A stretch of 64,000 bases of DNA from an uncultured Actinomycetes bacterium (GTDB lineage: Bacteria; Actinomycetota; Thermoleophilia; Gaiellales; JAICJC01): assembly GCA_963794415.1 (NCBI GenBank), contig CAWCDI010000001.1, positions 1,868,731 to 1,932,730 of the forward strand, in the 5' to 3' direction. The position numbers were made by a program, and so were the translations under genes. Positions 16,924 through 31,590 of this stretch are shown here, in pieces; the first letter of the stretch is position 1; each line of letters starts with the position of its first letter. Under the pieces are notes generated by a model, which saw only the letters and a list, made by a program, of their open reading frames with translations, did no database searches and had not been told where the DNA came from.

Positions 16924-17516
16924 GCCTGCGGATCTGGTCGCCGAGCGCCGCGGGAGCCGAGATCGTTGAGGCCCTCGGTCGCGGTGACCAGCTGGTGGCC
17001 GCCGATGCGCGGCCGCAGGTGGTGATCCGCGACGGCGATTCCGAGCCGGTAAAGGCCCCCGGCGCACGCATCATCACCATCGCGCCGGCGCGGGTGGCAG
17101 AGATCGAGGCGACCATCGTCGAGCTGGCCGCCGCGATCGGCGCCTCGCCGCAGGCGCCCGAGGTGATCGAGTCCATCCAGAAGCCCATCGAGTCGGTGCT
17201 GGCCGCGGTCGTCAACAGGCCGCGGCCCGCGGTCTTCATCGACATGCCGGCGGCGTGGATCCCCGACATGGCGGGGATGGCCGGCGGACAGTGGGTGGGC
17301 GCGCCGCAGGAGGCCGATCTGGTGGTGGTGGCCGACGGCGCTTCGGCGCCCCAGCCGATCACCGCGCGGGTGGTGGCGGTCGATCCGGCCTACTACGCCG
17401 TGGCCGGCCCGCGCGTGGCGTACGGGATCGTCCAGCTGGGGTTCCTGCTGCACCCCGACCGGCTGAACGATCCGCAGCTGCCGCTGCGTAACATCGAGGC
17501 GGGTGCGGGTGACTGA
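16920..17516 (+). CDS. Short, degenerate helical-backbone (BtuF-like) solute-binding-type protein with no signal peptide
   Basis: RIWSPSAAGAEIVEALGRGDQLVA, RPRPAVF, WIPDMAGMAGG, GPRVAYGIVQLGFLLHPD. Confidence 0.55.
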   Translation: MSLRIWSPSAAGAEIVEALGRGDQLVAADARPQVVIRDGDSEPVKAPGARIITIAPARVAEIEATIVELAAAIGASPQAPEVIESIQKPIESVLAAVVNRPRPAVFIDMPAAWIPDMAGMAGGQWVGAPQEADLVVVADGASAPQPITARVVAVDPAYYAVAGPRVAYGIVQLGFLLHPDRLNDPQLPLRNIEAGAGD

Positions 17517-18105
17517 AGAGGATGACGACAGACGATTGGTGGCCGCCCTGCGGGCCGGCGACGAGGAGGCGTTCCGCGAGTTGATCGACCGCTACCAGGC
17601 GCCGTTCGTGCGCACCGCGCGCACCTACGTGCGCGATCAGGCGGTGGCCGAGGAGGTCGCGCAGGAGACGTGGCTGGCGGTGCTGAACGGCCTCGACCGG
17701 TTCGAGGGCCGCTCGTCGCTGAAGACCTGGCTCTACCGCATCCTCACCAACCGCGCGATCACGCGGGCCAAGCGCGAGCGCCGCTCGGTGCCGTTCTCGG
17801 CCGCGGTGGATCCCGACCGGTTCGGCGCCGACGGCGGCTGGATCGACGGCCCCATGCCGTGGAGCGACCTGCCGCAGGATGTGCTGCTGGCAGCCGAGAC
17901 GCGGGCGAAGATCCTGGAGGCCATCGAGCAGCTCCCGCCCGCCCAGGCGCGCGTGATCACGCTGCGCGACATCGAGGGCTTCACGGCGGACGAGGTGCGC
18001 GACCTGCTCTACCTCTCGGACGTGAACCAGCGCGTGCTGCTCCATCGGGCGCGCTCGCGGGTGCGGGCGATCCTCGAGCCCTACTTCGCGGAGACCGTCG
18101 CATGA
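17503..18105 (+). CDS. ECF RNA polymerase sigma factor
   Basis: GDEEAFRELIDRY, AEEVAQETW, FEGRSSLKTWLYRI, region 4 LPPAQARVITLRD...LLHRARSRVR. Confidence 0.93.
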   Translation: MRVTEEDDDRRLVAALRAGDEEAFRELIDRYQAPFVRTARTYVRDQAVAEEVAQETWLAVLNGLDRFEGRSSLKTWLYRILTNRAITRAKRERRSVPFSAAVDPDRFGADGGWIDGPMPWSDLPQDVLLAAETRAKILEAIEQLPPAQARVITLRDIEGFTADEVRDLLYLSDVNQRVLLHRARSRVRAILEPYFAETVA

Positions 18106-18373: not shown

Positions 18374-18571
18374 CTACTCGCCCTTGCTCGAGAGCATGGC
18401 CAGCGCCAGCACGATGTTGGCGGCGGCGAGCGGGACTGCGCACCACTCCTCCTTCACGCCAAACCAGATGGCGAGCGGGAACGCGATGATGACGGCCGCC
18501 ACGTAGAGGATGGCGGAGAGCGCTGTGAGCATCGCAGCGGTGCTGCTGCGGCGAGATTGCATGATGGTCAT
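18374..18571 (-). CDS. Small two-TM membrane protein (65 aa)
   Basis: ATGA overlap with the cyclase stop; two hydrophobic segments. Confidence 0.6.
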   Translation of the reverse strand: MTIMQSRRSSTAAMLTALSAILYVAAVIIAFPLAIWFGVKEEWCAVPLAAANIVLALAMLSSKGE

Positions 18572-21500
18572 GGCTCGGCAGGATACAACGTGGGATCGAC
18601 GATGGCATCGCTCAGGCGCAGGCCCGTCGCGGGGCTCGACCACACCTCGCTCACCCACGGCCGCGTGAGCAGCGTCGAGCGCATGTAGCCGATCGGCACC
18701 AGCACCGCCGCGCGCTGCACCAGGTGGCGGTCGAGCTCCTGGTAGATGGCCAGGCGCCGGTCGTGATCGCGCTCGGCCGAGGCCGCCGCGCGAAGCCGCT
18801 CGGTGGTCTCGTCGGAGTAGATCCCGTACGACGGATGCACCAGCCCGCGGAAGAAGCCCTCCGGATCGGGATAGTCGGCGCCCCAGCTCGAGATGAACAT
18901 GTCGGCGTCGGCGATCGCGGGCTCGATCCCGCCGAAGTCGCGCGCCGGCGTGGTCACCTTCACCCGCAGGCCGATCTCGGCGAGCTGCTCCACCATCAGC
19001 TCGGCCACGGGATGCAGCCAGCCGTGGGCGCCCAGCACGATCTCGGGCAGCATGCGCCCCTCCGGGTGCCCGGCGTCGCGCAGGAGCTCGGCGGCGCGGT
19101 CCAGATCGCGCACCACCCCGCTCTTGGGCGAGTGCCCGGGAAGCGTCGGCGGCAGGAGCCCCGCACCGCTCGCCTGCCGCGGCTCCGACTCGACGGCCGC
19201 GGCCAGCGCCTTCACATCGAGCGCGGCGGCAATTGCCTGGCGGATGAGCGGATCCGACACGTTGGACTCCTCGGGCACGAACCACAGCATGAGGGTCGCG
19301 ATCCCGGGAACGGAGGTGACGGTCGTGCCCGGCTGCTGCCGGCCGCGGATGCCGAGCGACATCACGTCGGCGGCGTGGTTCTCCCACGTTGCGAGCCCCC
19401 GGCCCTTGACGTCGTCAAAATGCAGGAAGCCGATGTCGAGCTCGCCCACGTTGCCGGTCGGGCCAAGGAAGTACGGGTCGGCGACCGCCAGCAGGTGCGT
19501 GTCGTCGAGCTCTGCCACCTTGAACGGCCCGTTGGTGACCACCTCCTGCGTGCGCCAGTCCTGGCCGACGCGCTCCACGACGTGCCTCGGCCACGGCCGC
19601 AGCGCGCCGTGTGCGAGCTCGTAGAGAAACGCGTTTCGCGGCTGGTGCAGCACCACCTCGAGCGTGCGGTCGTCGTGGGCCACCACGTCGGCAACGTCCT
19701 CCAGCAGGAACGCCGTGGGCAGCTCCCACTCGATGATCTTCTGCCACGTGTACACGAAATCGTGGGCGGTGACGGGCTCGCCGTCGCTCCAGCGAAGGCC
19801 GTCGTGGAGCTGGAAGAGGTAGCTCAACCCGTCGCCCGACACGCGCATGTTCTCGGCCAGCGACGGCACCACGTTCATGTCGCGATCCAGCGTGAGGAGC
19901 CCGCGGAAGAGCACGTCGGTGACGGTGTTTGCCTCCATCACGTACACGTAGCCGGGCACGAACTCGAACGGCCGCGGCATGATCATCGAGAGCCGCTGGT
20001 CGCGAGTCACCTTCTCGGGCAGCGGCGCCTTGCACGCAAACGCCTCGTCGTAGGCGCGCTCGGCGCCGCGATAGTCGAAGTCCACGTGGTGGACGAGGGC
20101 GATCTTGAAGAGCGTCTCGCGCGACCGCCGCTCGTCCCCGAGCCGCGCCAGGAACGCGCGGGCGCGGCGGTAGTCCTCCACGGCCTCGTCGGTGGCCCAG
20201 AGCGCGCGGGCGTTGTCGCCGGCCTGGATGAGCGCGTCGGCCGCCTCGCTGGGCATGTCGGCCTCGGCCAGGTGGCGCGCGAGCACCGGGGTCGGCGGCG
20301 TCATGCCCGACTCGGCGGCCAGCTCCCGGAGCGCCAGGGCGATGCGCCGGTGGGCGTCGCGGCGGTCGTGCTCGAGCATGCCGGTGTAGGCCACCTCCTG
20401 CACCAGCCCGTGCCGGAACCGGTACTCCGGCGCCGGCCGGCGCCGCTCCTCGGTGATCAGGTCGAGCCGCTGCAGCTCGAGCAGCGCCGAGTGCGCCACG
20501 TCGGGATCCACCAGCTTCTCGACCAGCTCCACCCCGAACGTCCTGCCCACCGCCGCGCAGAGCGTCGCCACCTCGCGCGTCTGCGGGCTGAGGCGGCCGA
20601 GCCGGGCCTGGAGCGCAGTCTGCACCGCCACGGGCACCGCGACGTCGGCCAGATCCACCTGCAGCGCCATGCCGTCGCCGTTGGGCGTGATCACGCCGCG
20701 CTCGGCCAGATCGCGGATGGCCTCCTCGATGAAGAACGGGTTGCCGCCGGCGCGCTCCGAGACGAGCGCCCCCACGTCGGACGGGAGCTTCCCGCCCGCC
20801 ACGGTCTCTGCCAGCCGCATGCCGGCATCGGCGGGCAGCGCGCGCAGCTCGACCTCGCGGTAGCGGTGCGGCAGCCGCTCGCGGGCCCGCTGCCCCAGCT
20901 TCCAGGCGCTCGACTCGCGCTCGCTGCGGTACACCAGCGCAAAGCCGATGGAGGCGCGCTCGGTGAGGTCGAGCAGATGATCGACCACGGCGATGGTGGC
21001 GGCATCGGCCCAGTGCAGGTCGTCCATGACCACCAGCACGGGCTGGTCCTCGGCCAGGCGGCAGAGCACGTCGGAGAGCGCGCCGCCCGCCCGGTCGCGC
21101 ACGTTCTCGCGCGAGAGCTCGTTCAGGATGCCGGCCGCATCGGGGCCCTCCGGGGCCAGGCCGAGCGCCGCAGAGAGCAGCACGTAGCGGTCGCCCAGCT
21201 CGCCGAAGAGCTCGGTGAGCTTCGCCTTCAGCTCGAGCCGCATGCGCGAGTCGGTCGCCGCCACCGGCAGATCCATCCAGCCCCGCAGCAGGTCGCGGAT
21301 GGGCCAGAGCGGGAACCCGGTCGCATACGACGAGCTACGGCCCTCGAGCAGGCACGGCGGGTGCTCGGCCGCCCCCACCACGTCGCGGATGAGCCGCGTC
21401 TTCCCGATGCCCGCCTCGCCGGTGACCACCATCACCACGCCCAGCCCGTCGCAGAGCTCGGTGACCGCCCGCTCGAGCAGCGTGCGCTCGAAGTCGCGGC

Positions 21501-22113
21501 CGACCAGCGGCGGATCGGGGCGCGGGTCGCACGCCGGCACGGCGCCGTCCACCCGCATAAGCCTGATCGGCGAGCTGAAGCCGCGGAGCTCCACCTCGCC
21601 CAGGTCGTCCAGCTCGAAGAGGCCGCTCACCGCGCGGGCCAGCTCGGGGCCGACCACCACGGTGCCCGGCTCGGCGTGCTGCTGCAGCCGCGCCGCGAGG
21701 TTCACGGGGTCGCCGAGCGCGTTGAACCGCTCGCCGTCGCTCCCCGCCTCCCAGTCCACCACCACCCGGCCGGCCTCGACCGCCACCCGCGCGGCCACCG
21801 TCACGCCGTAGTCGGCCCGCACCTGCTCGGCAAACCGCGCCAGCTCGCGCTGCAGCTCGATGCCCGCGAGCACCGCGCGCTCGGCGTCGTCGTCGTGGGC
21901 CTCGGGCGCGCCGAACACCGCGAGCACGCCGTCGCCGGAGAGCTGTGCCACCGTGCCGCCGAACCGCCGCACGTGCACCGACACGAGGTCGGTGATCTCG
22001 TCGAAGAGCAGCTTCGAGCGCTCGGGGCCGAGCCGCTCGGCGATGGCCGTCGAGCCTTGCACGTCGGCCATCAGCACCGACACCAACCGCATCTCGCCTC
22101 GGGTCACGGACAT
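18568..22113 (-). CDS. Class III nucleotide cyclase - STAND/AAA NTPase - helical repeats - family 5 solute-binding domain fusion
   Basis: VLMADVQGST, LSGDGVLAVFG, GDPVNLAARLQ; Walker A GEAGIGKTR, Walker B VVMDDLHWAD, GGNPFF; OppA-like VPSLAE...DGLSYLFQLHDGLRWSDGEPVTAHDFVYTW, NGPFK, WGADYPDP. Confidence 0.9.
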   Translation of the reverse strand: MSVTRGEMRLVSVLMADVQGSTAIAERLGPERSKLLFDEITDLVSVHVRRFGGTVAQLSGDGVLAVFGAPEAHDDDAERAVLAGIELQRELARFAEQVRADYGVTVAARVAVEAGRVVVDWEAGSDGERFNALGDPVNLAARLQQHAEPGTVVVGPELARAVSGLFELDDLGEVELRGFSSPIRLMRVDGAVPACDPRPDPPLVGRDFERTLLERAVTELCDGLGVVMVVTGEAGIGKTRLIRDVVGAAEHPPCLLEGRSSSYATGFPLWPIRDLLRGWMDLPVAATDSRMRLELKAKLTELFGELGDRYVLLSAALGLAPEGPDAAGILNELSRENVRDRAGGALSDVLCRLAEDQPVLVVMDDLHWADAATIAVVDHLLDLTERASIGFALVYRSERESSAWKLGQRARERLPHRYREVELRALPADAGMRLAETVAGGKLPSDVGALVSERAGGNPFFIEEAIRDLAERGVITPNGDGMALQVDLADVAVPVAVQTALQARLGRLSPQTREVATLCAAVGRTFGVELVEKLVDPDVAHSALLELQRLDLITEERRRPAPEYRFRHGLVQEVAYTGMLEHDRRDAHRRIALALRELAAESGMTPPTPVLARHLAEADMPSEAADALIQAGDNARALWATDEAVEDYRRARAFLARLGDERRSRETLFKIALVHHVDFDYRGAERAYDEAFACKAPLPEKVTRDQRLSMIMPRPFEFVPGYVYVMEANTVTDVLFRGLLTLDRDMNVVPSLAENMRVSGDGLSYLFQLHDGLRWSDGEPVTAHDFVYTWQKIIEWELPTAFLLEDVADVVAHDDRTLEVVLHQPRNAFLYELAHGALRPWPRHVVERVGQDWRTQEVVTNGPFKVAELDDTHLLAVADPYFLGPTGNVGELDIGFLHFDDVKGRGLATWENHAADVMSLGIRGRQQPGTTVTSVPGIATLMLWFVPEESNVSDPLIRQAIAAALDVKALAAAVESEPRQASGAGLLPPTLPGHSPKSGVVRDLDRAAELLRDAGHPEGRMLPEIVLGAHGWLHPVAELMVEQLAEIGLRVKVTTPARDFGGIEPAIADADMFISSWGADYPDPEGFFRGLVHPSYGIYSDETTERLRAAASAERDHDRRLAIYQELDRHLVQRAAVLVPIGYMRSTLLTRPWVSEVWSSPATGLRLSDAIVDPTLYPAEP

Positions 22114-22143
22114 GGGTGCAGTGTGGCACACCGCGAAGCCGTC

Positions 22144-22413: not shown

Positions 22414-23079
22414 ATGGCCACGATCTCTCGCAAACACCTGCTCGTCTCCGCCTCGGCGCTCATCGGCGGCGCAACCGCGTTCGGCGCGGTCGATAGCCCG
22501 CGGGTGCTGGGCCAGACGCTGCCGGTCTATCGCCTCGACAACAGCGCCACGCCGCACTCGGCCGGCTGCGTGAGCTGCAACGCCTGCGCCGCGCACGCCG
22601 CCAACAAGTACTTCGCGACCGCGACCGACGCCGACCTCGACCGCGCCCACGTCCACTGCAAGTGCGTGGTGGTCGAGGGCGAGCAGCTGCCCTATCCGCA
22701 GTGGGTGCTGCTCTTCGGCGGCATGCCCGGATCCACCACGCGCGCGAGCGTGGATCTGCGCTCGCCGGGCGTCGCCGAGGTGCTCGCCCCCAGGGAGATC
22801 CACGTGCGCACCTTGCGAGTGCGGCTGCACCGGCGGCTGCTGGCAGTCGATCTGAAGCTCACGCAGGCCGCGCGGATCGAGGTGCACATGGCGGCCTCGC
22901 CGGGCGCCGTCTACGCCAGCAAGTGGCTGTCCGCGCCGCAGGGGATGAGCCGGAAGGGCGTGAGCATCCCGCCCGGCGCGCCCGCCGGCCCGTGCCTCCT
23001 CACGTTCGTGGTGCACCCCGCCTCGGGGAAGGGCCCGTCACGCACGCTCACGCGCCACGTGACGATCAGCCGAACGTGA
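22414..23079 (+). CDS. Putative Tat-exported Cys/His metal-binding protein
   Basis: ISRKHLL followed by a hydrophobic stretch; CVSCNACAAH and HVHCKC motifs; beta-rich C-terminus. Confidence 0.6.
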   Translation: MATISRKHLLVSASALIGGATAFGAVDSPRVLGQTLPVYRLDNSATPHSAGCVSCNACAAHAANKYFATATDADLDRAHVHCKCVVVEGEQLPYPQWVLLFGGMPGSTTRASVDLRSPGVAEVLAPREIHVRTLRVRLHRRLLAVDLKLTQAARIEVHMAASPGAVYASKWLSAPQGMSRKGVSIPPGAPAGPCLLTFVVHPASGKGPSRTLTRHVTISRT

Positions 23080-24757
23080 ACGAGTAGAGCGTGGTGCCCT
23101 GCGGCACCGAGATGTTGATCACGTGCGGTCCGGCCGACTGCTTCGCCGAGAGCAGGTAGAGGTCGTGGGCGTTCACGCGCACCGGCGGCTCCTTCTTGCC
23201 GTCCACGGTGATCCCCAGCACCGCGCTGGATCCGGCCGGCGGGCCGGCGACCAGATAGATGCGCGGCGCGGTGTACTTGAAGAGCAGGTGCGCGTTCTTG
23301 CCCGCAACGATCTGGTGTGACTGCACCAGCCACGTCCCGGTGAGCACCACGTTGCCCGGCTGGAATGTCCGGGGCGCGGAGTAGGTGGCCGAGCGGCCCT
23401 CGTGCATCTGCTGCACGTACCCCGCCGCGCGGTAGGTGCCGAGGTAGGTCTCGGGCGTGCGCACCTGCGGCGATGCGGTGAGCGCTCCGGCCGGGGTCAC
23501 CGGGGCCGCCGCCTTCTCGCCGAGGAGCGTGCGGATGTCGGCCTCGGTCTGCGAGTAGGCGCCCTCGCCGAAGTGGGCGTCGCGGACGTTGCCGTTTCGG
23601 TCGATCAGGTAGTCCGCCGGCCAGTACTGGTTGCCGTAGGCATTCCAGGTGCCGTAGGCGTCGTCGATGGCGACGGGATAGCGGATGTCGTGCTCGGAGA
23701 CCGCCATGCGCACGTTGGAGGGGACGTGCTCGAACGCGAACTCCGGCGTGTGCACCCCGACGATCTCGAGGCCTGCCTTGTGGTAGCGGGAGTACCACGC
23801 CTCGAGGTAGGGGAGCGTGCGGATGCAGTTCACGCACGAGTACGTCCAGAAGTCCACCAGCACCACCTTGCCGCGCAGCTTCGCCATGGTGAGCGGTGCG
23901 CCGCCGGGGGTGTTGATCCAGTCCGAGATGCGCGTGAAGTCCGGCGCCTTGCCGTAGTTCTTCAGCTGGTCGGCGGAGTTGCCGGCGGCCAGGGCCGCTT
24001 TCGAGCTCGAGTCGGAGTGCTCCAGCTTCTGCAGGTCGTTGCGGACGAGGGTGGACTTCTCGGCGCCCTGCAGGCTCTCGAGATAGCCGGGAGCGCTGGC
24101 CGCAAGCTGGGTCGGGATGTTGGTGTGGAAGAGAAACGCGGCGGCGATCAGCACGACTCCCGCGGCCTGGCGCAGGTGCACCCCGCCATGGCGGATCGCG
24201 GTGAGCTTCCCCGCACCGCGGTTTCCGAGCAGCGCGATGCCGAAGATCGGGATGGTCGCCCCGGCCGCGTAGGCGATGGTGATGAGCACCAGCTCGAGCG
24301 AGACCCGGTACTGCGAGCTGAGCGAGGTGACCGCCGCGAGGATCGGCCCGGCGCAGGGCGTCCACACCAGCGCGAGGCCGGCGCCCAGGCCAACGCCCGA
24401 CCAGAACCCGTCGCCCTTTGCCAGCCTGCCGCCGGCCCTCGCCGAGAGCGGCACGAAGAGGCGGCCGACCCACTCACCCAGCGGCGGGATCAGCAGCGTG
24501 ATGCCCACCAGCGCCAGCATCACGATTGCGAGCGTGTGCAGGAGGTCCTGCGGCAGGCCGAGCGCCGAGAGCAGGCGCGACGCGGTGAGCGTGAACACGA
24601 CGAACGCCACGGCGAGCCCGGTGGCGATGCCCAGCGGCCGGCGCCGGCCGCCGGTCGCGGATGCGGCCGCGACGACAGGCAGCACAGGGAGGACACACGG
24701 CGAGAGGAACGTTGCGAGCCCTGCAACGACGCCGACGACGATCAGGGTGAAGTCCAC
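23066..24757 (-). CDS. dipZ: Cytochrome c biogenesis protein DipZ (CcdA TM domain, thioredoxin-like domain, C-terminal domain)
   Basis: FLSPCVLPVLP, WTPCAGPIL, VDFWTYSCVNCIR, GVHTPEFAFE, NQYWPA, HFGEGAY, TPETYLG, YSFTFG. Confidence 0.93.
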   Translation of the reverse strand: MDFTLIVVGVVAGLATFLSPCVLPVLPVVAAASATGGRRRPLGIATGLAVAFVVFTLTASRLLSALGLPQDLLHTLAIVMLALVGITLLIPPLGEWVGRLFVPLSARAGGRLAKGDGFWSGVGLGAGLALVWTPCAGPILAAVTSLSSQYRVSLELVLITIAYAAGATIPIFGIALLGNRGAGKLTAIRHGGVHLRQAAGVVLIAAAFLFHTNIPTQLAASAPGYLESLQGAEKSTLVRNDLQKLEHSDSSSKAALAAGNSADQLKNYGKAPDFTRISDWINTPGGAPLTMAKLRGKVVLVDFWTYSCVNCIRTLPYLEAWYSRYHKAGLEIVGVHTPEFAFEHVPSNVRMAVSEHDIRYPVAIDDAYGTWNAYGNQYWPADYLIDRNGNVRDAHFGEGAYSQTEADIRTLLGEKAAAPVTPAGALTASPQVRTPETYLGTYRAAGYVQQMHEGRSATYSAPRTFQPGNVVLTGTWLVQSHQIVAGKNAHLLFKYTAPRIYLVAGPPAGSSAVLGITVDGKKEPPVRVNAHDLYLLSAKQSAGPHVINISVPQGTTLYSFTFG

Positions 24758-24766
24758 ACCTCATGA

Positions 24767-24791
24767 TACGAAGCCGAGGGTTGGACGGTTC
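24767..24791 (-). promoter_or_regulatory. ECF-type promoter of dipZ
   Basis: GAACC-N16-CGTA on the minus strand, about 10 nt before the dipZ start. Confidence 0.5.
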
Positions 24792-24804
24792 TCAACACTC
24801 GATT

Positions 24805-24856
24805 AAACGAACAAGGCTCGGGCTGGGCCTGCCGCTCCGCAGACCCCGCCCGAGCC
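24805..24856 (-). terminator. Intrinsic terminator after the 55-aa peptide gene
   Basis: Stem GGCTCGGGC/GCCCGAGCC with inner pairing, followed on the minus strand by TTGTTCGTTT; a second hairpin GCCGCGG/CCGCGGC lies at 24861-24877. Confidence 0.7.
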
Positions 24857-24891
24857 GGACGCCGCGGAGACCGCGGCAAACCTGACTGCTG

Positions 24892-25059
24892 CTAGCGCTT
24901 GTGGTGGTGCAGCTCGAAGTCGGGGCCTTCCTCGTCGCTCTCGGGAGAGACCTCGTCAACGGCCTTCTTGTGCACGTGCGCCTCGACGTCGGGAGCGTCG
25001 TCGCGCTTGGCGTGCGCCCCTGCCTCGTTGCCATGCTTGAAACGATCGATCTCGCTCAT
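24892..25059 (-). CDS. 55-aa acidic His-rich repeat peptide (not in the ORF track)
   Basis: Hand translation MSEIDRFKHGNEAGAHAKRDDAPDVEAHVHKKAVDEVSPESDEEGPDFELHHHKR; AGGAGG RBS, GC-rich third codon positions, own promoter and terminator. Confidence 0.8.
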   Translation of the reverse strand: MSEIDRFKHGNEAGAHAKRDDAPDVEAHVHKKAVDEVSPESDEEGPDFELHHHKR

Positions 25060-25102
25060 CGTGATCCTCCTGCGGTGGTGGAATGACCCAATCCTTACTC
25101 AC

Positions 25103-25132
25103 CCAGACGGGGGATGCGCGCGAAATCTTCCC
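25103..25132 (-). promoter_or_regulatory. ECF promoter, copy 1 (peptide gene)
   Basis: GGGAAGA-N16-CGTCTGG. Confidence 0.75.
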
Positions 25133-25177
25133 GACCGTTGAAATTCGTTTCGCGAGCCGCACCGGTAAGGTTGGCGG

Positions 25178-25726
25178 ATGGCCACATCTCAGGCGCTTGT
25201 CGATCGCTGCCGCACGGGCGATCCAGACGCCTGGCGCGATCTGGTGGACGGCTACGCCGCATACGTGAACGCGATCATCGTGCGCGCCTACCGGGTGGGC
25301 CCCGAGGACGCCGAGGACATCTTCCAGGACGTGTTCAGCCGCGTGTTCGAGCGGCTCGAGACGCTGCGCGACGACGAGGCGCTGCGCGCGTGGATCGCCC
25401 AGGTGACCCGGAACCTCTGCCTCGACCACCTGCGGCGCGCCCGGCCGGCGGAGGAGCTGCCCGAGACCCTCATCTCCGACGGCGAGCAGGAGCTGGCCGA
25501 CCTCACCGAGGCGCTCTGGCTGCGCCAGGCGATGGCCGATCTGCCCGAGAGCTGCAGCGACATCCTCGACCGGTTCTTCCAGCGCGACCAGTCCTACCGC
25601 ACCATCGCGAGCCAGACCGGGATCGCCGAGGGCACCATCGCGAGCCGCATCAGCCGGTGCCTCGGGAGGCTTCGCGAACTGGTCGAGGGAAGAAATGTGC
25701 ACCCGCCTGCGTCTGGAAAGACATGA
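25178..25726 (+). CDS. ECF RNA polymerase sigma factor
   Basis: GDPDAWRDLVDGY, DAEDIFQDVF, WIAQVTRNLCLD, SYRTIA...GTIASRISRCLGRLR; TAAGGT -10 just before ATG. Confidence 0.93.
   Translation: MATSQALVDRCRTGDPDAWRDLVDGYAAYVNAIIVRAYRVGPEDAEDIFQDVFSRVFERLETLRDDEALRAWIAQVTRNLCLDHLRRARPAEELPETLISDGEQELADLTEALWLRQAMADLPESCSDILDRFFQRDQSYRTIASQTGIAEGTIASRISRCLGRLRELVEGRNVHPPASGKT
25687..25716 (+). promoter_or_regulatory. ECF promoter, copy 2 (inside sigma 3' end, facing the partner gene)
   Basis: GGGAAGA-N16-CGTCTGG, 6 nt before ATG 25723. Confidence 0.72.
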
Positions 25727-25980
25727 GCATCGACGACTACGAGATCCAGCGGCGCCTGCGGCTGCTGCCGCCACCGCCCGTGAGCTGGGTGCAGACGGCC
25801 AAGGAGCTGCCGTTCGTGCAGGACGAGATCTCGCAGATCCTCTCGCGCGCTGCCGCGGACGAGCGGTTCCAGCAGGCGCTTCGCGACGATCCCGAGGGCG
25901 CGCTCGAGGCCGGCGGCTACGAGCTCTCGGGGGACGTCGTCGCGCACATGCTGCGGCGGCTGCCGCCCCCCGCTCGCTGA
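25723..25980 (+). CDS. 85-aa sigma partner (candidate anti-sigma) with NHLP-leader-like C-terminal segment
   Basis: ATGA overlap with sigma; LRLLPPPPVSWVQTAKELP followed by ILSRAAADERFQQALRDDPEGALEAGGYELS. Confidence 0.75.
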   Translation: MSIDDYEIQRRLRLLPPPPVSWVQTAKELPFVQDEISQILSRAAADERFQQALRDDPEGALEAGGYELSGDVVAHMLRRLPPPAR

Positions 25981-26010
25981 TCCGGCGCCGCCTGTAGCAT
26001 CTGCGGCTCG

Positions 26011-27666
26011 ATGAGCTCCATCCTGAGTGCCTTTCGAGGCGTCTTTGCAAACCGGGACCTCCGGCGGGTCGAGCTCGCCGCGATTGGCTCGGAGCTGGCC
26101 GCATTCTCGTTCCTGGTGGTGCTGGCGGTGGTCGCCTACCATGCGAGCGGAACCGGCGGCGTGGGCGTGCTCATGCTGGTGCGGATGATGGCCGCAGCGC
26201 TGACCACGCCGTTCACGTCGGCGTTCGCCGACCGGTATCCGCGAAAGCGCGTGATGATCGTCTCCAACCTGGCGTGCGCCGCGCTGATCATGGTGATCGC
26301 GCTGGCGGTCTCGCGCGACGTCGGCCTGCCCGGCCTCTGCGCGCTCGCGGCCGTGACCGCCATCTTCTCGAGCATCTTCCGGCCGGCCCAGGCGGCGCTT
26401 CTGCCGTCGCTTGCACGCACGCCGGAGGAGCTCACCGCGGCAAACGCCGTCGCGACCACCATCGAGGGCGTGGCGATCTTCTGCGGCCCCGGCATCGGCG
26501 GCATCCTGCTGGGCCTGAGCGGGCCCACCGCGACCTTCGCGTTCGCCTCGGCCGGCCTGATCTGGTCGGCGGCGCTCGTCACCCGGGTGCACGAGCCCGC
26601 GCGGGAGGCCGAGGAGGCCGCCGAGGACGCGCCGCCCACCTCACGGTTCCAGGAGGCGACCGCGGGCATCCGGACGCTCTGGCACCAGCCGTCGCTGATC
26701 GCCGTCGTCGGCGTCTACGCGGCGCAGACGGTGGTGGCGGGGGCGCTCGGCGTGTTCAACGTCGTGCTCGCGCTGCAGGTGTTCGACCTGGGAAACGCCG
26801 GCGTCGGCTACCTCGACTCGGCGTTCGGCGTGGGCGGCATCATCGGCGGCGTGCTGGCCGCGGGGCTTGCCGGGAGCCGGCGGCTGGGCGCGTGGTTCGC
26901 GCTGGGCGCGCTCACCTGGGGCATCGGCATCTCGCTGGTGGGCCTCGCGCCCACCACGCTGGTGGTGTTCGCGCTGCTGGCCGGGGTCGGCGTGGGCAAC
27001 ACCGTGATCGACGTGGCGGCGATCACGCTCATCCAGCGCTCTGCGCCGCCCGCGGTGCTCGCGCGCGTGTTCGGCATCATCGAGAGCGTGCTCCTCACCG
27101 GCCTCGGCGTGGGCTCCATCCTGGCGCCGGTCCTCATCTCGGTGCTCGGCGCCCGCACGGCGATCGTCGTCACCGGCCTGATCATCCCCGTGTCGGTCAT
27201 CTTCCTCGGCCGCCGCGTCCTGAGCCTCGACGAGGTGGGCAAGGAGCTGGTGCCGCTGGTGGAGCTGCTGCGCGGCACGTCGATCTTCGCGCCGCTTCCC
27301 CAGGCCACCCTCGAGCAGGTGGCCGGCCGCCTCGAGGCGCTGAAGGTGACCGCGGGCGAGACCGTGATCACCGAGGGCGATGCGGGCGACCGGTTCTACC
27401 TGGTCGCCTCGGGCGACGCGGCCATCCTGGCCCACGGCGAGCGGGTCGCGACCACCGGCGCCGGCGGGTTCTTCGGCGAGATCGCCCTCCTCCGCGACAC
27501 GCCGCGCACGGCGACGGTCATCGCCGACACCGACCTCGAGCTCTACACGCTCGAGCGCGAGGAGTTCCTGGCGGCGGTCACGGGCCACACGGAGAGCTCG
27601 GCCGAGGCCGACCTGGTCACGTCCCAGCGGCTGGCCGACCTACGCGGCACCGTCGCGGCCATCTAG
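26011..27666 (+). CDS. MFS transporter with C-terminal cyclic-nucleotide-binding domain
   Basis: Twelve TM with FADRYPRKRVM motif A; VITEGDAGDRFYLVASG...FFGEIALLRDTPRTATV phosphate-binding cassette. Confidence 0.93.
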   Translation: MSSILSAFRGVFANRDLRRVELAAIGSELAAFSFLVVLAVVAYHASGTGGVGVLMLVRMMAAALTTPFTSAFADRYPRKRVMIVSNLACAALIMVIALAVSRDVGLPGLCALAAVTAIFSSIFRPAQAALLPSLARTPEELTAANAVATTIEGVAIFCGPGIGGILLGLSGPTATFAFASAGLIWSAALVTRVHEPAREAEEAAEDAPPTSRFQEATAGIRTLWHQPSLIAVVGVYAAQTVVAGALGVFNVVLALQVFDLGNAGVGYLDSAFGVGGIIGGVLAAGLAGSRRLGAWFALGALTWGIGISLVGLAPTTLVVFALLAGVGVGNTVIDVAAITLIQRSAPPAVLARVFGIIESVLLTGLGVGSILAPVLISVLGARTAIVVTGLIIPVSVIFLGRRVLSLDEVGKELVPLVELLRGTSIFAPLPQATLEQVAGRLEALKVTAGETVITEGDAGDRFYLVASGDAAILAHGERVATTGAGGFFGEIALLRDTPRTATVIADTDLELYTLEREEFLAAVTGHTESSAEADLVTSQRLADLRGTVAAI

Positions 27667-30441: not shown

Positions 30442-31590
30442 CTATCGGATTCCCTGAACCCCCAGCACGAGCACGGCAGAGTCGTCCTGCGGCACCTCAT
30501 CGGCGAAGTCCTGCGACGCCGTGCCGAGCGTGGCGGCCATCTCGGGAGCGCTCTCGCCGGCGTGCTGCAGCACCAGCGCCTCGAGCCGCTCGTCGCCAAA
30601 CCGCTGCCGCGCCCCGCGCCGGTCGGGAATGCCGTCCGTCCAGAGCACCAGGGCGTCGCCGGGGCGCATCAGCGCGACCTGCTCGGACACCGAGATCTGC
30701 TCCCAGATGCCGAGGAGCGTCCCGGGCCGGCCGACCTCCTCCCCGGTGCCGTCGGCCCGTACCAGGAGCGGCGGCGGATGGCCGCCGCACGCCACGGTCA
30801 CCTCATACCCCTCGGGATGCACGCGGCCGCGCACCACCAGCGCCGTGCAGAACTGCCCGGTGCCGATGCGCCGGCGGATGGCGTCGTTCACGATCTGGAG
30901 CACCTCGGCCGGCGGCTGCTCGAGCATCGAGGCTGTGCGGATGGTGTGGCGCGCGAGCGCGGTGACCGCCGCGGCCGTGGGGCCCTTGCCGCAGACGTCG
31001 CCGATGGTCGCGCCGAACGTCTCGGGCGTCACCTGCCACACGTCGTAGAAGTCCCCGCCCAGCACGGTGCCCTCGCCGGCGGGCCGAAACCACGCGCCGA
31101 TGTCCACCCTGGGGATCTCCGGAAGCCGCTCGGGCAGCAGGCTCTGCTGCAGCGAGGAGGCCACGAACTGGGCTGACTCGTTGGCGCGGCTCAGATCGCC
31201 GAAGGCCCGGTCGAGCCGACCGCGCAAATAGTCCACCGCCGCGCCCGTGCCGAACCCGATCACGAACCAGAGGAGGATCGACGGCAGCCCGTAGGCCGAC
31301 ACGTCGTTGCCCGACGACGCCGCGAGGACGTCGAACATCGCGGCGTTCACCACGCCCACGATGCCGCCGGAGTAGCGGCCGCCGAAGAGGCCGCAGGCGA
31401 TCGCCGCCGTGATCCCGAGCGCGCTCGGCACGCCGGCCAGGTTGTGGATGCTGTCGGTCTGCCACACCACGAGCAGGACGATCGCCTCGGCGACGATGCC
31501 GGCGACCGTGACCATCACCTGCCTGCGGCGGTCGGGCGGCTCGGCCAGCATCGCCAGGGGGATGGCGCGGCGGGAGGAGGGAACCGTCAT
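30442..31590 (-). CDS. Membrane-bound PP2C/SpoIIE-type phosphatase
   Basis: N-terminal TMs; LQQSLLP, GGDFYD, IGDVCGKG, CGGHPPP, WTDGI, QDDSAVL. Confidence 0.92.
   Translation of the reverse strand: MTVPSSRRAIPLAMLAEPPDRRRQVMVTVAGIVAEAIVLLVVWQTDSIHNLAGVPSALGITAAIACGLFGGRYSGGIVGVVNAAMFDVLAASSGNDVSAYGLPSILLWFVIGFGTGAAVDYLRGRLDRAFGDLSRANESAQFVASSLQQSLLPERLPEIPRVDIGAWFRPAGEGTVLGGDFYDVWQVTPETFGATIGDVCGKGPTAAAVTALARHTIRTASMLEQPPAEVLQIVNDAIRRRIGTGQFCTALVVRGRVHPEGYEVTVACGGHPPPLLVRADGTGEEVGRPGTLLGIWEQISVSEQVALMRPGDALVLWTDGIPDRRGARQRFGDERLEALVLQHAGESAPEMAATLGTASQDFADEVPQDDSAVLVLGVQGIR

What the first reader, a model, noticed from the sequence alone, without database searches (positions are those of the whole stretch)
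24805..25980. Self-contained ECF sigma circuit driving an unannotated repeat peptide and an NHLP-leader-like partner
Seen: the same promoter, GGGAAGA-N16-CGTCTGG (14 of 14 fixed bases, same spacing), occurs at 25132-25103 (minus) and 25687-25716 (plus, inside the sigma 3' end). One copy drives a monocistronic 55-aa peptide with AGGAGG and a terminator; the other sits 6 nt before the ATG of the 85-aa partner. The sigma itself has a housekeeping-type -10. Known: ECF promoters are typically GGAA-like/CGTC-like, and cognate anti-sigmas are usually the next gene. Inference: the sigma induces both an effector peptide and its own regulator, a feedback loop. The partner has no ZAS motif or TM helix, so it would be an atypical anti-sigma. 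I do not recognise this three-gene module as described.
Basis: partly seen in the sequence, partly recalled or inferred. Interest (0 to 1): 0.85.

Follow-up and report, generated by a model that had tools for sequence, protein, structure and literature searches.

The report
ECF sigma, novel anti-sigma, repeat peptide
A stress-type sigma factor of a soil actinobacterium sits beside a small soluble protein that probably holds it in check, and one conserved promoter drives both that protein and a histidine- and acid-rich repeat peptide of unknown function.

Summary
GGGAAGA-N16-CGTCTGG occurs exactly twice in the 3.97-Mb genome, and both copies lie in this locus.

Comparative genomics shows it is a real, conserved ECF-type promoter:
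- At 54 distinct sigma-partner places, GGAAGA is kept in 51. GTC at the same spacing is kept in 53, and the spacer carries no information.
- All 28 related peptide genes found carry the motif upstream.

The 85-aa partner always follows the sigma: 30/30, 28/28 and 6/7 loci. It has no Cys and no TM segment. Its C-terminal half is NHLP/LigA-like, at NF038399 39.2 bits against a cutoff of 40.

In a complex model, partner residues 2-33 lie between sigma regions 2 and 4. The ipSAE is 0.80 and the best control 0.02.

The 55-aa product belongs to an unnamed family of PDVEAH-repeat peptides with 2-5 repeats. These were found only in genomes that also have the partner.

No RiPP enzymes lie nearby, and no further regulon member was found in this genome.

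Best reading: a constitutively made ECF sigma, a new type of soluble anti-sigma under sigma-dependent negative feedback, and a peptide output. Inhibition, the inducing signal and the peptide's function are all inferred.

The parts
24805..24856 (-). Terminator-like hairpin (24856-24815) with a U-rich tail (24814-24805) after the peptide gene.
   Evidence: RNA fold of 24790-24895(-): -63 kcal/mol, z -5.5, 0 of 200 shuffles fold as well. Hairpins also follow the peptide genes of other genera.
24892..25059 (-). 55-aa His/Asp/Glu-rich peptide, a member of the PDVEAH-repeat peptide family. It has one canonical PDVEAH repeat and one degenerate PDFELH repeat.
   Evidence: ORF. Relatives have 2-5 repeats and 47-137 aa. 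No Pfam or NCBIfam family.
25066..25071 (-). Shine-Dalgarno AGGAGG, 6 nt before the peptide ATG.
   Evidence: Sequence. An AGGAG-type SD with a 34-49 nt leader is present in the relatives.
25103..25132 (-). ECF-type promoter GGGAAGA-N16-CGTCTGG for the peptide gene, with a 46-nt leader.
   Evidence: The same motif lies upstream of 28 of 28 PDVEAH genes.
25166..25171 (+). TAAGGT (TANNNT, -10-like), 6 nt before the sigma ATG. A leaderless sigma mRNA is inferred.
   Evidence: Kept at the same position in the 6 distinct same-genus loci. There is no -35, and the consensus scan is negative.
25178..25726 (+). ECF (group 4) sigma factor, 182 aa.
   Evidence: Pfam Sigma70_r2 8.3e-13 and r4 1.7e-6. TIGR02937 85.4 bits against a cutoff of 42.9. 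No specific NCBIfam equivalog reaches its cutoff.
25687..25716 (+). ECF-type promoter inside the sigma 3' end. CGTC lies 9 nt before the partner ATG, so a leaderless partner mRNA is inferred.
25723..25980 (+). 85-aa soluble partner and candidate anti-sigma. The N-terminal part (residues 2-33) is predicted to contact the sigma, and the C-terminal part is an NHLP/LigA-like helical domain (about residues 35-79).
26011..27666 (+). MFS transporter fused to a cNMP-binding domain. It is a conserved neighbour of the module in three genera, and its role is unknown.
   Evidence: Pfam MFS_1 1.7e-35 and cNMP_binding 1.2e-19. Neighbour in genera g1, g2 and g7.

Best explanation
This is an ECF sigma / anti-sigma module of Gaiellales-type actinobacteria with an unusual layout.

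The sigma gene (25178-25726) is transcribed from a housekeeping-type TANNNT promoter, probably as a leaderless mRNA, and is not autoregulated. The next gene (25723-25980) encodes a small cytoplasmic protein. Its first ~33 residues wedge between sigma regions 2 and 4 and keep the sigma off RNA polymerase. Its C-terminal NHLP/LigA-like three-helix domain is the probable input or docking part.

The partner is made in two ways. The first is translational coupling (ATGA) on the sigma transcript. The second is a leaderless mRNA started at the sigma's own target promoter, GGAAGA-N16-CGTC, which is embedded in the last 40 nt of the sigma gene. Free sigma therefore raises its own inhibitor, giving negative feedback without positive feedback.

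The same promoter drives the output, a monocistronic PDVEAH-repeat peptide rich in His, Asp and Glu. This is most likely a disordered metal-binding or stress-protective peptide.

What is shown: motif conservation, gene linkage, fold class and a supportive complex model. What is inferred: that this sigma reads this promoter, that the partner inhibits, the leaderless starts, the signal, and the peptide's function.
For: **Motif**
- It occurs exactly twice in the genome, both times in this locus.
- At 54 distinct sigma-partner places from three searches, GGAAGA is kept in 51, CGTC at N16 in 48 and GTC in 53. Spacer columns carry about 0 bits.
- The motif persists where the sigma ORF ends before it (L013, L046, L063, L068). 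The first base of the xCG codon varies while its third base is fixed. Both facts point to a constraint on the DNA, not the protein.
- A diverged module in another family of the phylum has GCAAGA-N17-CGTC at the same place.

**Regulon**
- 28 of 28 PDVEAH genes in 27 loci carry GGAAGA-N16-18-CGTC within 200 nt upstream of the first repeat.
- The strict N16 core occurs only 25 times in 7.9 Mb of both strands of this genome.
- In one sample of 121 genomes of the order, the peptide was found in 28 and the partner in 65. All 28 with the peptide also have the partner.
- In about 20 of those 28 genomes the two genes lie within 2.5 kb on one contig (coordinates).

**Partner**
- A sigma gene lies directly upstream in 30 of 30, 28 of 28 and 6 of 7 loci. 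The seventh is cut by a contig end.
- The complex model gives ipSAE 0.80 in 3 of 3 runs, with a best control of 0.02. The runs share at least 94% of contacts and partner pLDDT is 84. The tool's mark was reached by 58 of 80 solved complexes and 2 of 110 mismatched pairs.
- The interface is partner residues 2-33 plus 75 and 78-79, against sigma residues 19-58 and 108-170. It includes six of the partner's conserved residues: L11, L15, P19, W22, A26 and P30.

**Start codons and autoregulation**
- The partner start codon lies 9-12 nt after CGTC in 47 of 53 loci (with hand correction of in-frame TTG/ATG codons that lie on the -10).
- The strict motif is not found on the + strand upstream of the sigma in any of the 54 places, within the ~900 nt held.
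Against: - No transcription or binding experiment exists.
- The strict core is not enriched genome-wide compared with other spacings. The case therefore rests on position and conservation.
- No further target was found in this genome, which is 87% complete.
- GGAAGA also encodes a conserved Gly-Arg in the sigma tail, so part of its conservation at that site may be at the protein level.
- The complex score is the model's own confidence, and sigma/anti-sigma complexes of other families are solved. My own alignments were used, so the calibration holds only roughly.
- The partner on its own models only moderately well, at pLDDT 70.
- Fold search gave no significant hit, with all E > 1.
- The genome holds other ECF sigmas, for example at 17503-18105, and one of these could read the motif.
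- The sigma's ECF group could not be determined.
- Nothing indicates what signal releases the sigma.
Confidence: 0.62

Rival explanations
1. The partner binds the sigma but acts as a positive cofactor, chaperone or stabiliser that the sigma needs for activity. It would not be an inhibitor, and the sigma-dependent promoter would then give positive feedback.
For: Strict co-location and predicted binding fit any obligate partner. The partner shows no similarity to any known anti-sigma family (E up to 1).
Against: The predicted contacts cover sigma residues 19-58, which are regions 2.1-2.2. From established knowledge, this is the surface that binds the beta-prime clamp helices. The contacts hold regions 2 and 4 together, which is the geometry of known anti-sigmas. 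The gene order and stop/start overlap are those typical of sigma/anti-sigma pairs.
Confidence: 0.15
2. The conserved motif is read by a different sigma factor or regulator, and its presence in the sigma-partner locus is coincidental linkage.
For: No experiment ties this sigma to the motif. The genome encodes other ECF sigmas, one of them at 17503-18105.
Against: The motif sits at the sigma-partner junction in 53 of 54 places. It changes together with a diverged sigma in another family, from GGAAGA-N16 to GCAAGA-N17. Peptide genes carrying it were found only in genomes that have the pair, 28 of 28.
Confidence: 0.08
3. The 85-aa protein is a RiPP precursor with an NHLP-type leader, as its nearest families are annotated. 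The sigma would merely regulate a natural-product locus.
For: NF038399 scores 39.2 bits against a cutoff of 40, and there are weak TIGR03793 and PF14407 hits. Many relatives carry a precomputed PF14407 assignment. PF14407 was defined as an ATP-grasp-linked RiPP family (PMC8939145, one passage read).
Against: There is no core peptide: the family alignment ends a few residues after the last helix, with no Gly-Gly site and no Cys. None of the 13 gene products scanned across the neighbourhood (within about 9 kb on either side) is an ATP-grasp, YcaO, radical-SAM or lanthionine enzyme or a C39 exporter. The conserved N-terminal 33 residues have no counterpart in NHLP leaders and form the predicted sigma interface.
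Confidence: 0.03
4. The repeated motif is a by-product of coding constraint on the sigma C-terminus (Glu-Gly-Arg ... Ser) together with a chance second copy.
For: GGA-AGA is in frame as Gly-Arg, and xCG-TCx encodes a conserved Ser.
Against: The second copy and 27 others lie in non-coding DNA upstream of peptide genes. The motif is kept where the sigma ORF ends before it. The amino-acid-determining first base of the xCG codon varies while the CG is fixed.
Confidence: 0.02

Closest known systems
Class II anti-sigma domains (CnrY with CnrH; NepR with sigma-EcfG). The names and binding mode are recalled; the classes are mentioned in PMC7406223 and PMC6101532, of which I saw only the search listing.
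   Same: A short helical segment of a small protein is predicted to lie between sigma regions 2 and 4. As with NepR, the protein is small and soluble.
   Different: No sequence similarity was detected (E up to 1). There is no TM segment, unlike CnrY. No PhyR-like partner-switching protein was identified. The partner carries an extra NHLP/LigA-like C-terminal domain.
Soluble zinc-binding anti-sigmas of actinobacteria (RsrA with SigR; RshA with SigH). Recalled.
   Same: A cytoplasmic anti-sigma is encoded directly after its ECF sigma in an actinobacterium.
   Different: There is no HxxxCxxC motif, and indeed no Cys at all. In those systems the sigma/anti-sigma operon is autoregulated as a whole. 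Here only the partner gene has the sigma-type promoter.
RsbN-BldN (PMC6101532, title and abstract in the search listing).
   Same: This is a precedent for an anti-sigma with no sequence similarity to known ones, recognised only through its linkage to an ECF sigma.
   Different: The protein family is different, and no relation was detected.
NHLP / Nif11 / Os1348 / Frankia_peptide 'LigA-like' three-helix domain. Os1348 is an 85-aa precursor protein in Pseudomonas with an X-ray structure (PMC7726476, abstract). The ECOD grouping is in PMC12353581 (passages read).
   Same: Residues ~35-76 match these profiles weakly: NF038399 at 39.2 bits, and nitrile hydratase alpha and NHLP precursor chains in PDB at E 0.002-0.03.
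   Different: There is no core peptide and there are no maturase genes. The partner has a conserved N-terminal extension that contacts the sigma. It is always encoded next to an ECF sigma.
Typical autoregulated ECF operons. ECFs 'usually autoregulate their own expression' (PMC7826278, passages read).
   Same: An ECF-type -35/-10 pair (GGAA.../CGTC) lies in the sigma's own locus, with a co-encoded regulator.
   Different: The promoter lies inside the sigma gene's 3' end and serves only the downstream regulator. The sigma itself has a TANNNT promoter.

Membership tests
ECF (group 4) sigma-70 family | Only regions 2 and 4 are present, and the family model scores above its cutoff. | tested here: met
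   Pfam Sigma70_r2 at 48.4 bits (cutoff 24) and r4 at 27.8 bits (cutoff 24.1). TIGR02937 at 85.4 bits against 42.9. The protein is 182 aa.
A named ECF subgroup or equivalog (SigZ, SigM, SigE, SigW and others) | The NCBIfam equivalog scores above its curated cutoff. | tested here: not met
   The best specific models are far below cutoff, for example SigZ at 69.4 against 212 and SigE-fam_strep at 68.3 against 141.55. The ECF Hub group could not be assigned because those models are not available here and the paper's supplements are closed.
Class I anti-sigma (ASDI / ZAS) | An anti-sigma domain with a zf-HC2 hit or an HxxxCxxC motif. | tested here: not met
   No Pfam hit other than Frankia_peptide and DurB-like at E up to 1. 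The protein has no Cys.
Class II anti-sigma (CnrY/NepR-like) | A short helical sigma-binding segment that embraces regions 2 and 4, and family sequence similarity. | tested here: inconclusive
   The predicted interface fits this mode. No sequence similarity was found and no structural hit. There is no solved structure.
Functional anti-sigma factor | Binds its sigma and blocks transcription. | not testable with these tools
   Only a supportive model (ipSAE 0.80 against 0.02) and gene linkage.
NHLP clan (NF038399 Os1348 family; TIGR03793; PF14407) | Score at or above the curated cutoff. | tested here: not met
   NF038399 at 39.2 against 40. TIGR03793 at 22.5 against 50.9. PF14407 at 23.7 against 48. 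The first is a near miss. Many relatives carry a precomputed PF14407 assignment, and a PDB profile search hits nitrile hydratase alpha and NHLP precursors at E 0.002-0.03. Fold-level kinship is therefore likely, but family membership is not shown.
RiPP precursor | A core peptide after the leader with a cleavage site, and co-located maturase or exporter genes. | tested here: not met
   The alignment ends right after the last helix, with no GG and no Cys. The neighbours are a DsbD-thioredoxin fusion, an MFS-cNMP fusion, a PLP decarboxylase, DUF1684, a SpoIIE phosphatase, an adenylate cyclase fusion and another sigma.
ECF-type promoter | A conserved -35 (GGAA-like) and -10 (CGT-like) at fixed spacing with a variable spacer, located upstream of genes. 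| tested here: met
   That the consensus is typical of ECFs is recalled knowledge. Sigma-dependence was not tested.
Intrinsic terminator (after the peptide gene) | A GC-rich hairpin followed by a U tract. | tested here: met
   The simple scan missed it because of its loop limit.

The most novel reading that the evidence does not exclude
The NHLP/LigA-like domain of the partner is a peptide- or protein-recognition module borrowed from RiPP biology. It would gate an ECF sigma: binding of a ligand, possibly the PDVEAH peptide that the sigma itself induces, or recognition by a leader-specific protease, releases or re-captures the sigma. If so, part of what databases call 'Frankia_peptide/NHLP RiPP precursors' in Actinomycetota are transcription regulators. 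The PDVEAH peptides would then be a new class of sigma-controlled signalling or metal-handling peptides in abundant soil Gaiellales.
Probability: 0.12. Interest if true: 0.8.

Novelty: new variant of a known kind. Interest (0 to 1): 0.6.

Why it matters
ECF sigma / anti-sigma pairs are a major bacterial signalling device and are used as orthogonal switches in synthetic biology. The largest published classification says that soluble anti-sigmas can be recognised only if they resemble known ones, and that others probably exist (PMC7826278, passage read).

This is a concrete candidate for such a case:
- The partner family has at least 983 sequence clusters, all labelled hypothetical.
- It is always encoded beside one ECF clade.
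- It has a fold otherwise known from RiPP leaders.
- It comes with a defined promoter and a defined output gene.

The layout, with a constitutive sigma and sigma-dependent transcription of the inhibitor alone from inside the sigma gene, predicts a negative-feedback response that can be tested directly in a heterologous host.

It also names a previously unnamed peptide family, the PDVEAH repeats, in Gaiellales. That order is known mostly from metagenomes.

Tried and rejected
**Single-sequence peptide search.** Searching 40 relatives with the window's peptide found only 4 genomes and none of 6 in the same genus. This was a sensitivity problem. The same-genus genes were then found by position, and a profile search found 28 of 121 genomes.

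**Genome-wide regulon scan in this genome.**
- The strict core GGAAGA-N16-CGTC occurs 25 times and is not enriched over other spacings.
- Apart from the two local sites, no occurrence had a convincing gene-start context.
- The one-mismatch sites are no more than the control gives.

**Small basic proteins.** Homologues of the small basic proteins driven by this promoter in family f3 were sought in this genome. None was found.

**The search for related loci.** Run with the partner alignment on genome contigs, it returned an error because no block was conserved enough. Organism names therefore come only from the source labels of homologues, 'Gaiellales bacterium' and 'Gaiellaceae bacterium'.

**Consensus promoter/terminator scan.** 0 promoters and 0 terminators in 24700-26100.

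**RNA evidence.**
- One soil metatranscriptome (X1) holds two short contig pieces identical to 24881-24926 and 25803-25887, flanked by unrelated letters.
- X2, of unknown kind, covers 25594-26100.
- These are contigs only, so they show no start, strand or level. I do not use them as support.

**Fold search of the partner model.** No hit with E below 1. The top rows are RiPP precursor and nitrile hydratase chains.

**Protein atlas.** Only 'hypothetical protein' clusters for both the partner and the peptide.

**Literature.**
- 'NHLP' with 'anti-sigma': 0 papers.
- 'Franean1_4349': 0 papers.
- 'DVEAH': 4 unrelated papers.
- 'ECF', 'sigma factor' and 'Thermoleophilia' together: 0 papers.
- The supplements of PMC7826278, which describe the ECF groups, are closed. 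This clade may be listed there as a group with a 'putative anti-sigma factor'.

**Earlier findings of this scan.** Nothing was found by place or by sequence.
Full report
**What is in the sequence**

The region holds three genes:
- a 55-aa ORF on the minus strand (24892-25059);
- a 182-aa ORF on the plus strand (25178-25726);
- an 85-aa ORF (25723-25980), whose ATG overlaps the TGA of the second ORF as ATGA.

The 30-nt pattern GGGAAGA-N16-CGTCTGG lies at 25687-25716 (+) and 25103-25132 (-). These are the only two matches in the window even with 2 mismatches allowed. They are also the only exact matches in the whole 3.97-Mb assembly. The two one-mismatch sites elsewhere are no more than the backwards-pattern control gives.

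AGGAGG (25066-25071, minus strand) lies 6 nt before the peptide ATG. Downstream of the peptide stop, a long hairpin (24856-24815) with a U-rich tail folds far better than shuffled sequence, at z = -5.5. The simple terminator scan had missed it.

**The sigma**

The 182-aa protein has Sigma70 regions 2 and 4 and passes the general ECF model, TIGR02937, at 85.4 bits against a cutoff of 42.9. It reaches no specific NCBIfam equivalog. Its nearest solved relative is Rhodobacter RpoE at E = 1e-14. I could not place it in an ECF Hub group.

In the six distinct loci of the same genus, a TANNNT hexamer sits 6 nt before the sigma start codon. Here it is TAAGGT at 25166-25171. There is no -35, and the sigma-70 consensus scan is negative. 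I infer a leaderless mRNA from a housekeeping-type promoter. The idea that leaderless mRNAs with TANNNT promoters are common in actinobacteria is recalled knowledge, not tested here.

**The partner**

The 85-aa protein has no Cys and no hydrophobic segment. Its residues ~35-76 match NHLP-clan models:
- NF038399 'Os1348 family' scores 39.2 bits against a cutoff of 40.
- TIGR03793 and PF14407 score well below their cutoffs.

A profile of the family hits nitrile hydratase alpha chains and NHLP precursor chains in PDB at E 0.002-0.03. The namesake Os1348 is an 85-aa Pseudomonas precursor protein with a crystal structure (PMC7726476, abstract). ECOD places Frankia_peptide, Nif11 and NHase-alpha in one 'LigA-like' three-helix group (PMC12353581, passages read).

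The family alignment of 23 sequences ends a few residues after the last helix. It has no Gly-Gly site and no Cys, so there is no core peptide. None of the 13 gene products scanned across the neighbourhood, within about 9 kb on either side, is a RiPP maturase or exporter. I therefore reject the RiPP-precursor reading.

**Linkage of partner and sigma**

A single-sequence search of 40 relatives found the partner in 26 of them, including 22 of 24 genomes of the same family. Profile searches gave these results:
- 65 of 121 genomes sampled from the order: family f1 32/32, f3 24/32, f4 6/14, f2 2/33, f5 0/9. These tallies include one genome flagged unpublished, G257.
- 35 of 201 genomes sampled from the class.
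- 11 of 401 sampled from the phylum, among them 7 of 21 genomes of one other family, f24.

In every locus fetched, a homologue of the sigma lies directly upstream:
- 30 of 30 loci (two of them are the same place in G004);
- 28 of 28 loci;
- 6 of 7 loci in f24, where the seventh is cut by the contig end.

The protein collection holds at least 983 clusters of this family, all labelled hypothetical. The few named ones come from Gaiellaceae or Actinomycetota bins.

**The promoter**

I anchored on the -35 in 54 distinct sigma-partner places (with duplicates removed). Conservation there is as follows:
- GGAAGA in 51;
- GGAAG in 53;
- CGTC exactly 16 nt later in 48;
- GTC in 53;
- about 0 bits in the 16 spacer columns.

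The one outlier is the G004 locus. There the partner frame is broken and the -10 is shifted by 3 nt.

GGA-AGA is in frame as Gly-Arg of the sigma tail, so coding constraint had to be excluded. Four facts argue against it:
- The motif is kept where the sigma ORF stops before it (L013, L046, L063, L068).
- In the xCG-TCx codons the first base varies (Ala, Thr or Pro) while the CG is fixed.
- The same motif recurs in plainly non-coding DNA, as shown below.
- In family f24 the diverged sigma (35-41% identity) carries GCAAGA-N17-CGTC at the same place. This is what co-evolution of a sigma and its promoter would look like.

The partner start codon lies 9-12 nt after CGTC in 47 of 53 loci. In 25 of these the distance is exactly 9 nt, as it is here. 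This count comes, and I corrected by hand the cases where the script took an in-frame TTG or ATG lying on the -10. That distance leaves no room for a Shine-Dalgarno leader, so I infer leaderless partner transcripts.

The strict motif is not found on the plus strand upstream of the sigma in any of the 54 places, within the ~900 nt held. The sigma therefore appears not to be autoregulated. ECFs 'usually autoregulate' (PMC7826278, passage read).

**The peptide**

The window's peptide query alone found little. By position, same-genus loci G003, G005 and G002 have a divergent small gene behind the same promoter. It encodes VDKERRI...DDGPDVEAHYKKR, and the G005 copy has a frame change near its end. 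G006 and G004 lack the gene at that place.

Weak hits in other genera turned out to be genes for peptides of 53-137 aa built from repeats of [DE]P[DE]VEAH, separated by His/Arg/Lys and Asp/Glu linkers. Each has the promoter, an AGGAG Shine-Dalgarno and a hairpin after the stop.

A profile search of 121 genomes of the order found the family in 28: f1 25/32, f3 2/32, and none in f2, f4 or f5. One of the 30 loci returned (L095) has no repeat, and two are duplicates. In the remaining 27 loci, 28 of 28 peptide genes have GGAAGA-N16-18-CGTC within 200 nt upstream of the first repeat: 26 at N16, one at N17 and one at N18. Leaders are 34-49 nt.

For scale, the strict N16 core occurs 25 times in both strands of this genome.

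All 28 genomes with the peptide are among the 65 with the partner in the same sample. Kin are not independent, so this is descriptive only. In about 20 of them the two genes lie within 2.5 kb on one contig (coordinates).

The family has no Pfam or NCBIfam model. It forms 65 clusters, all hypothetical, in the protein collection. No paper was found for the motif.

**Other targets**

In this genome I found none. In other genera the same motif precedes other genes near the module:
- small basic proteins (H-x-E-I-A-R-x-R-H-A-D-L-L-R-E-A...) with start codons 2-30 nt after CGTC;
- secreted proteins;
- in one locus, a subtilisin-like protease.

The regulon is small and varies between genera.

**Binding**

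A complex prediction used the two family alignments. It gave ipSAE 0.80 in all three runs against 0.02 for the best of three controls. At least 94% of contacts were shared between runs, and partner pLDDT was 84. The tool's mark was reached by 58 of 80 solved complexes and 2 of 110 mismatched pairs. These counts hold only roughly here because my own alignments were used.

The confident interface is partner residues 2-33 (plus 75 and 78-79) against sigma residues 19-58 and 108-170. It includes six of the eleven invariant or near-invariant partner residues: L11, L15, P19, W22, A26 and P30.

The NHLP-like part is mostly outside the interface. The partner on its own is all-helical, with only moderate confidence at pLDDT 70. 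The N-terminal part is the weakest.

Sigma residues 19-58 are regions 2.1-2.2, which from established knowledge is the main surface that binds core polymerase. A segment clamped between regions 2 and 4 is how known anti-sigmas work. This is what the partner works like. It is not a member of the class I family, and membership of the class II family is not shown.

The model is support, not proof. Sigma/anti-sigma complexes of other families have been solved, so some of the score may come from likeness to them.

**Mechanism proposed**

The steps that are shown are the conserved promoter, the linkage, the fold class and a supportive complex model.

The steps that are inferred are these:
- The sigma is made constitutively, and the partner is made with it through the ATGA overlap.
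- The partner sequesters the sigma.
- An unknown input, acting on the NHLP/LigA-like domain or on the sigma's conserved cysteines, frees the sigma.
- Free sigma transcribes the peptide gene and, from inside its own gene, a leaderless partner mRNA, which shuts the response down again.

The peptide's composition, with regularly spaced His flanked by acidic residues and no signal peptide, suggests a disordered metal-binding or protective peptide. This is the weakest inference in the report.

**Novelty**

ECF sigma / anti-sigma modules are well known. What I could not find described is fourfold:
- this partner family acting as a sigma regulator;
- the NHLP-like fold in that role;
- the internal promoter serving the regulator alone;
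- the PDVEAH peptides.

The closed supplements of PMC7826278 may list this ECF clade with a 'putative anti-sigma factor'.

I rate the finding as a new variant of a known kind, with interest 0.6.

Noticed in passing
window 25178-25726 (sigma residues C11, C81, C126, C161): Across 23 aligned sigma homologues, three Cys are invariant (C81, C126, C161) and a fourth is kept in at least 90% (C11). The partner has none. The sigma itself might be redox- or metal-sensitive.
   Followed up: no
window 26011-27666 (+); loci L006-L015: An MFS transporter fused to a cyclic-nucleotide-binding domain is a conserved neighbour of the module in genera g1 (downstream), g7 (directly upstream of the sigma) and g2 (convergent). 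Separate cNMP-binding-domain hits lie near the module in five further loci. An adenylate cyclase-AAA-solute-binding fusion lies at 18568-22131 (-). A cAMP link is possible.
   Followed up: partly
window 17503-18105 (+): A second ECF sigma factor lies 7 kb upstream.
   Followed up: no
loci L041, L047, L048, L051, L055, L058, L016: In other genera the same promoter drives a different family of 56-76-aa basic proteins (H-x-E-I-A-R-x-R-H-A-D-L-L-R-E-A...). Their start codons mostly lie 2-11 nt after CGTC. No homologue was found in the window's genome.
   Followed up: partly
loci L013 (2297+), L048/L051/L058 (about 900, -), L026 (1741+), L016 (1770+): Further genes behind the motif next to the module: a subtilisin-like protease, Arg-rich signal-peptide proteins, and an M24-type peptidase-like ORF. 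The last name is only my reading of the translation.
   Followed up: no
L023/L032 (G004, same genus): This locus is degenerate. The partner reading frame is interrupted, the sigma C-terminus is altered and longer (193 aa), the -10 is shifted by 3 nt, and there is no peptide gene at the divergent position.
   Followed up: partly
loci L099-L105 (family f24, another class of the phylum): A diverged version of the module, with the sigma at 35-41% identity and a partner-like ORF. It has GCAAGA-N17-CGTC in the sigma 3' end and a start codon about 12 nt later.
   Followed up: partly
L069 (G019) and L070 (G011): The peptide family varies in copy number. G019 has two tandem peptide genes, each with its own promoter. 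G011 has a 137-aa form with five near-identical 27-aa repeat units.
   Followed up: partly
window 30442-31590 (-): A SpoIIE-type PP2C phosphatase lies 4.5 kb downstream. Such phosphatases act in partner-switching cascades that control other sigma factors (recalled). I did not check whether it is conserved near the module.
   Followed up: no
window 23066-24757 (-): A DsbD-like membrane domain is fused to thioredoxin-like domains next to the peptide gene. It is adjacent to the sigma in G006 and G004, where the peptide gene is missing.
   Followed up: partly
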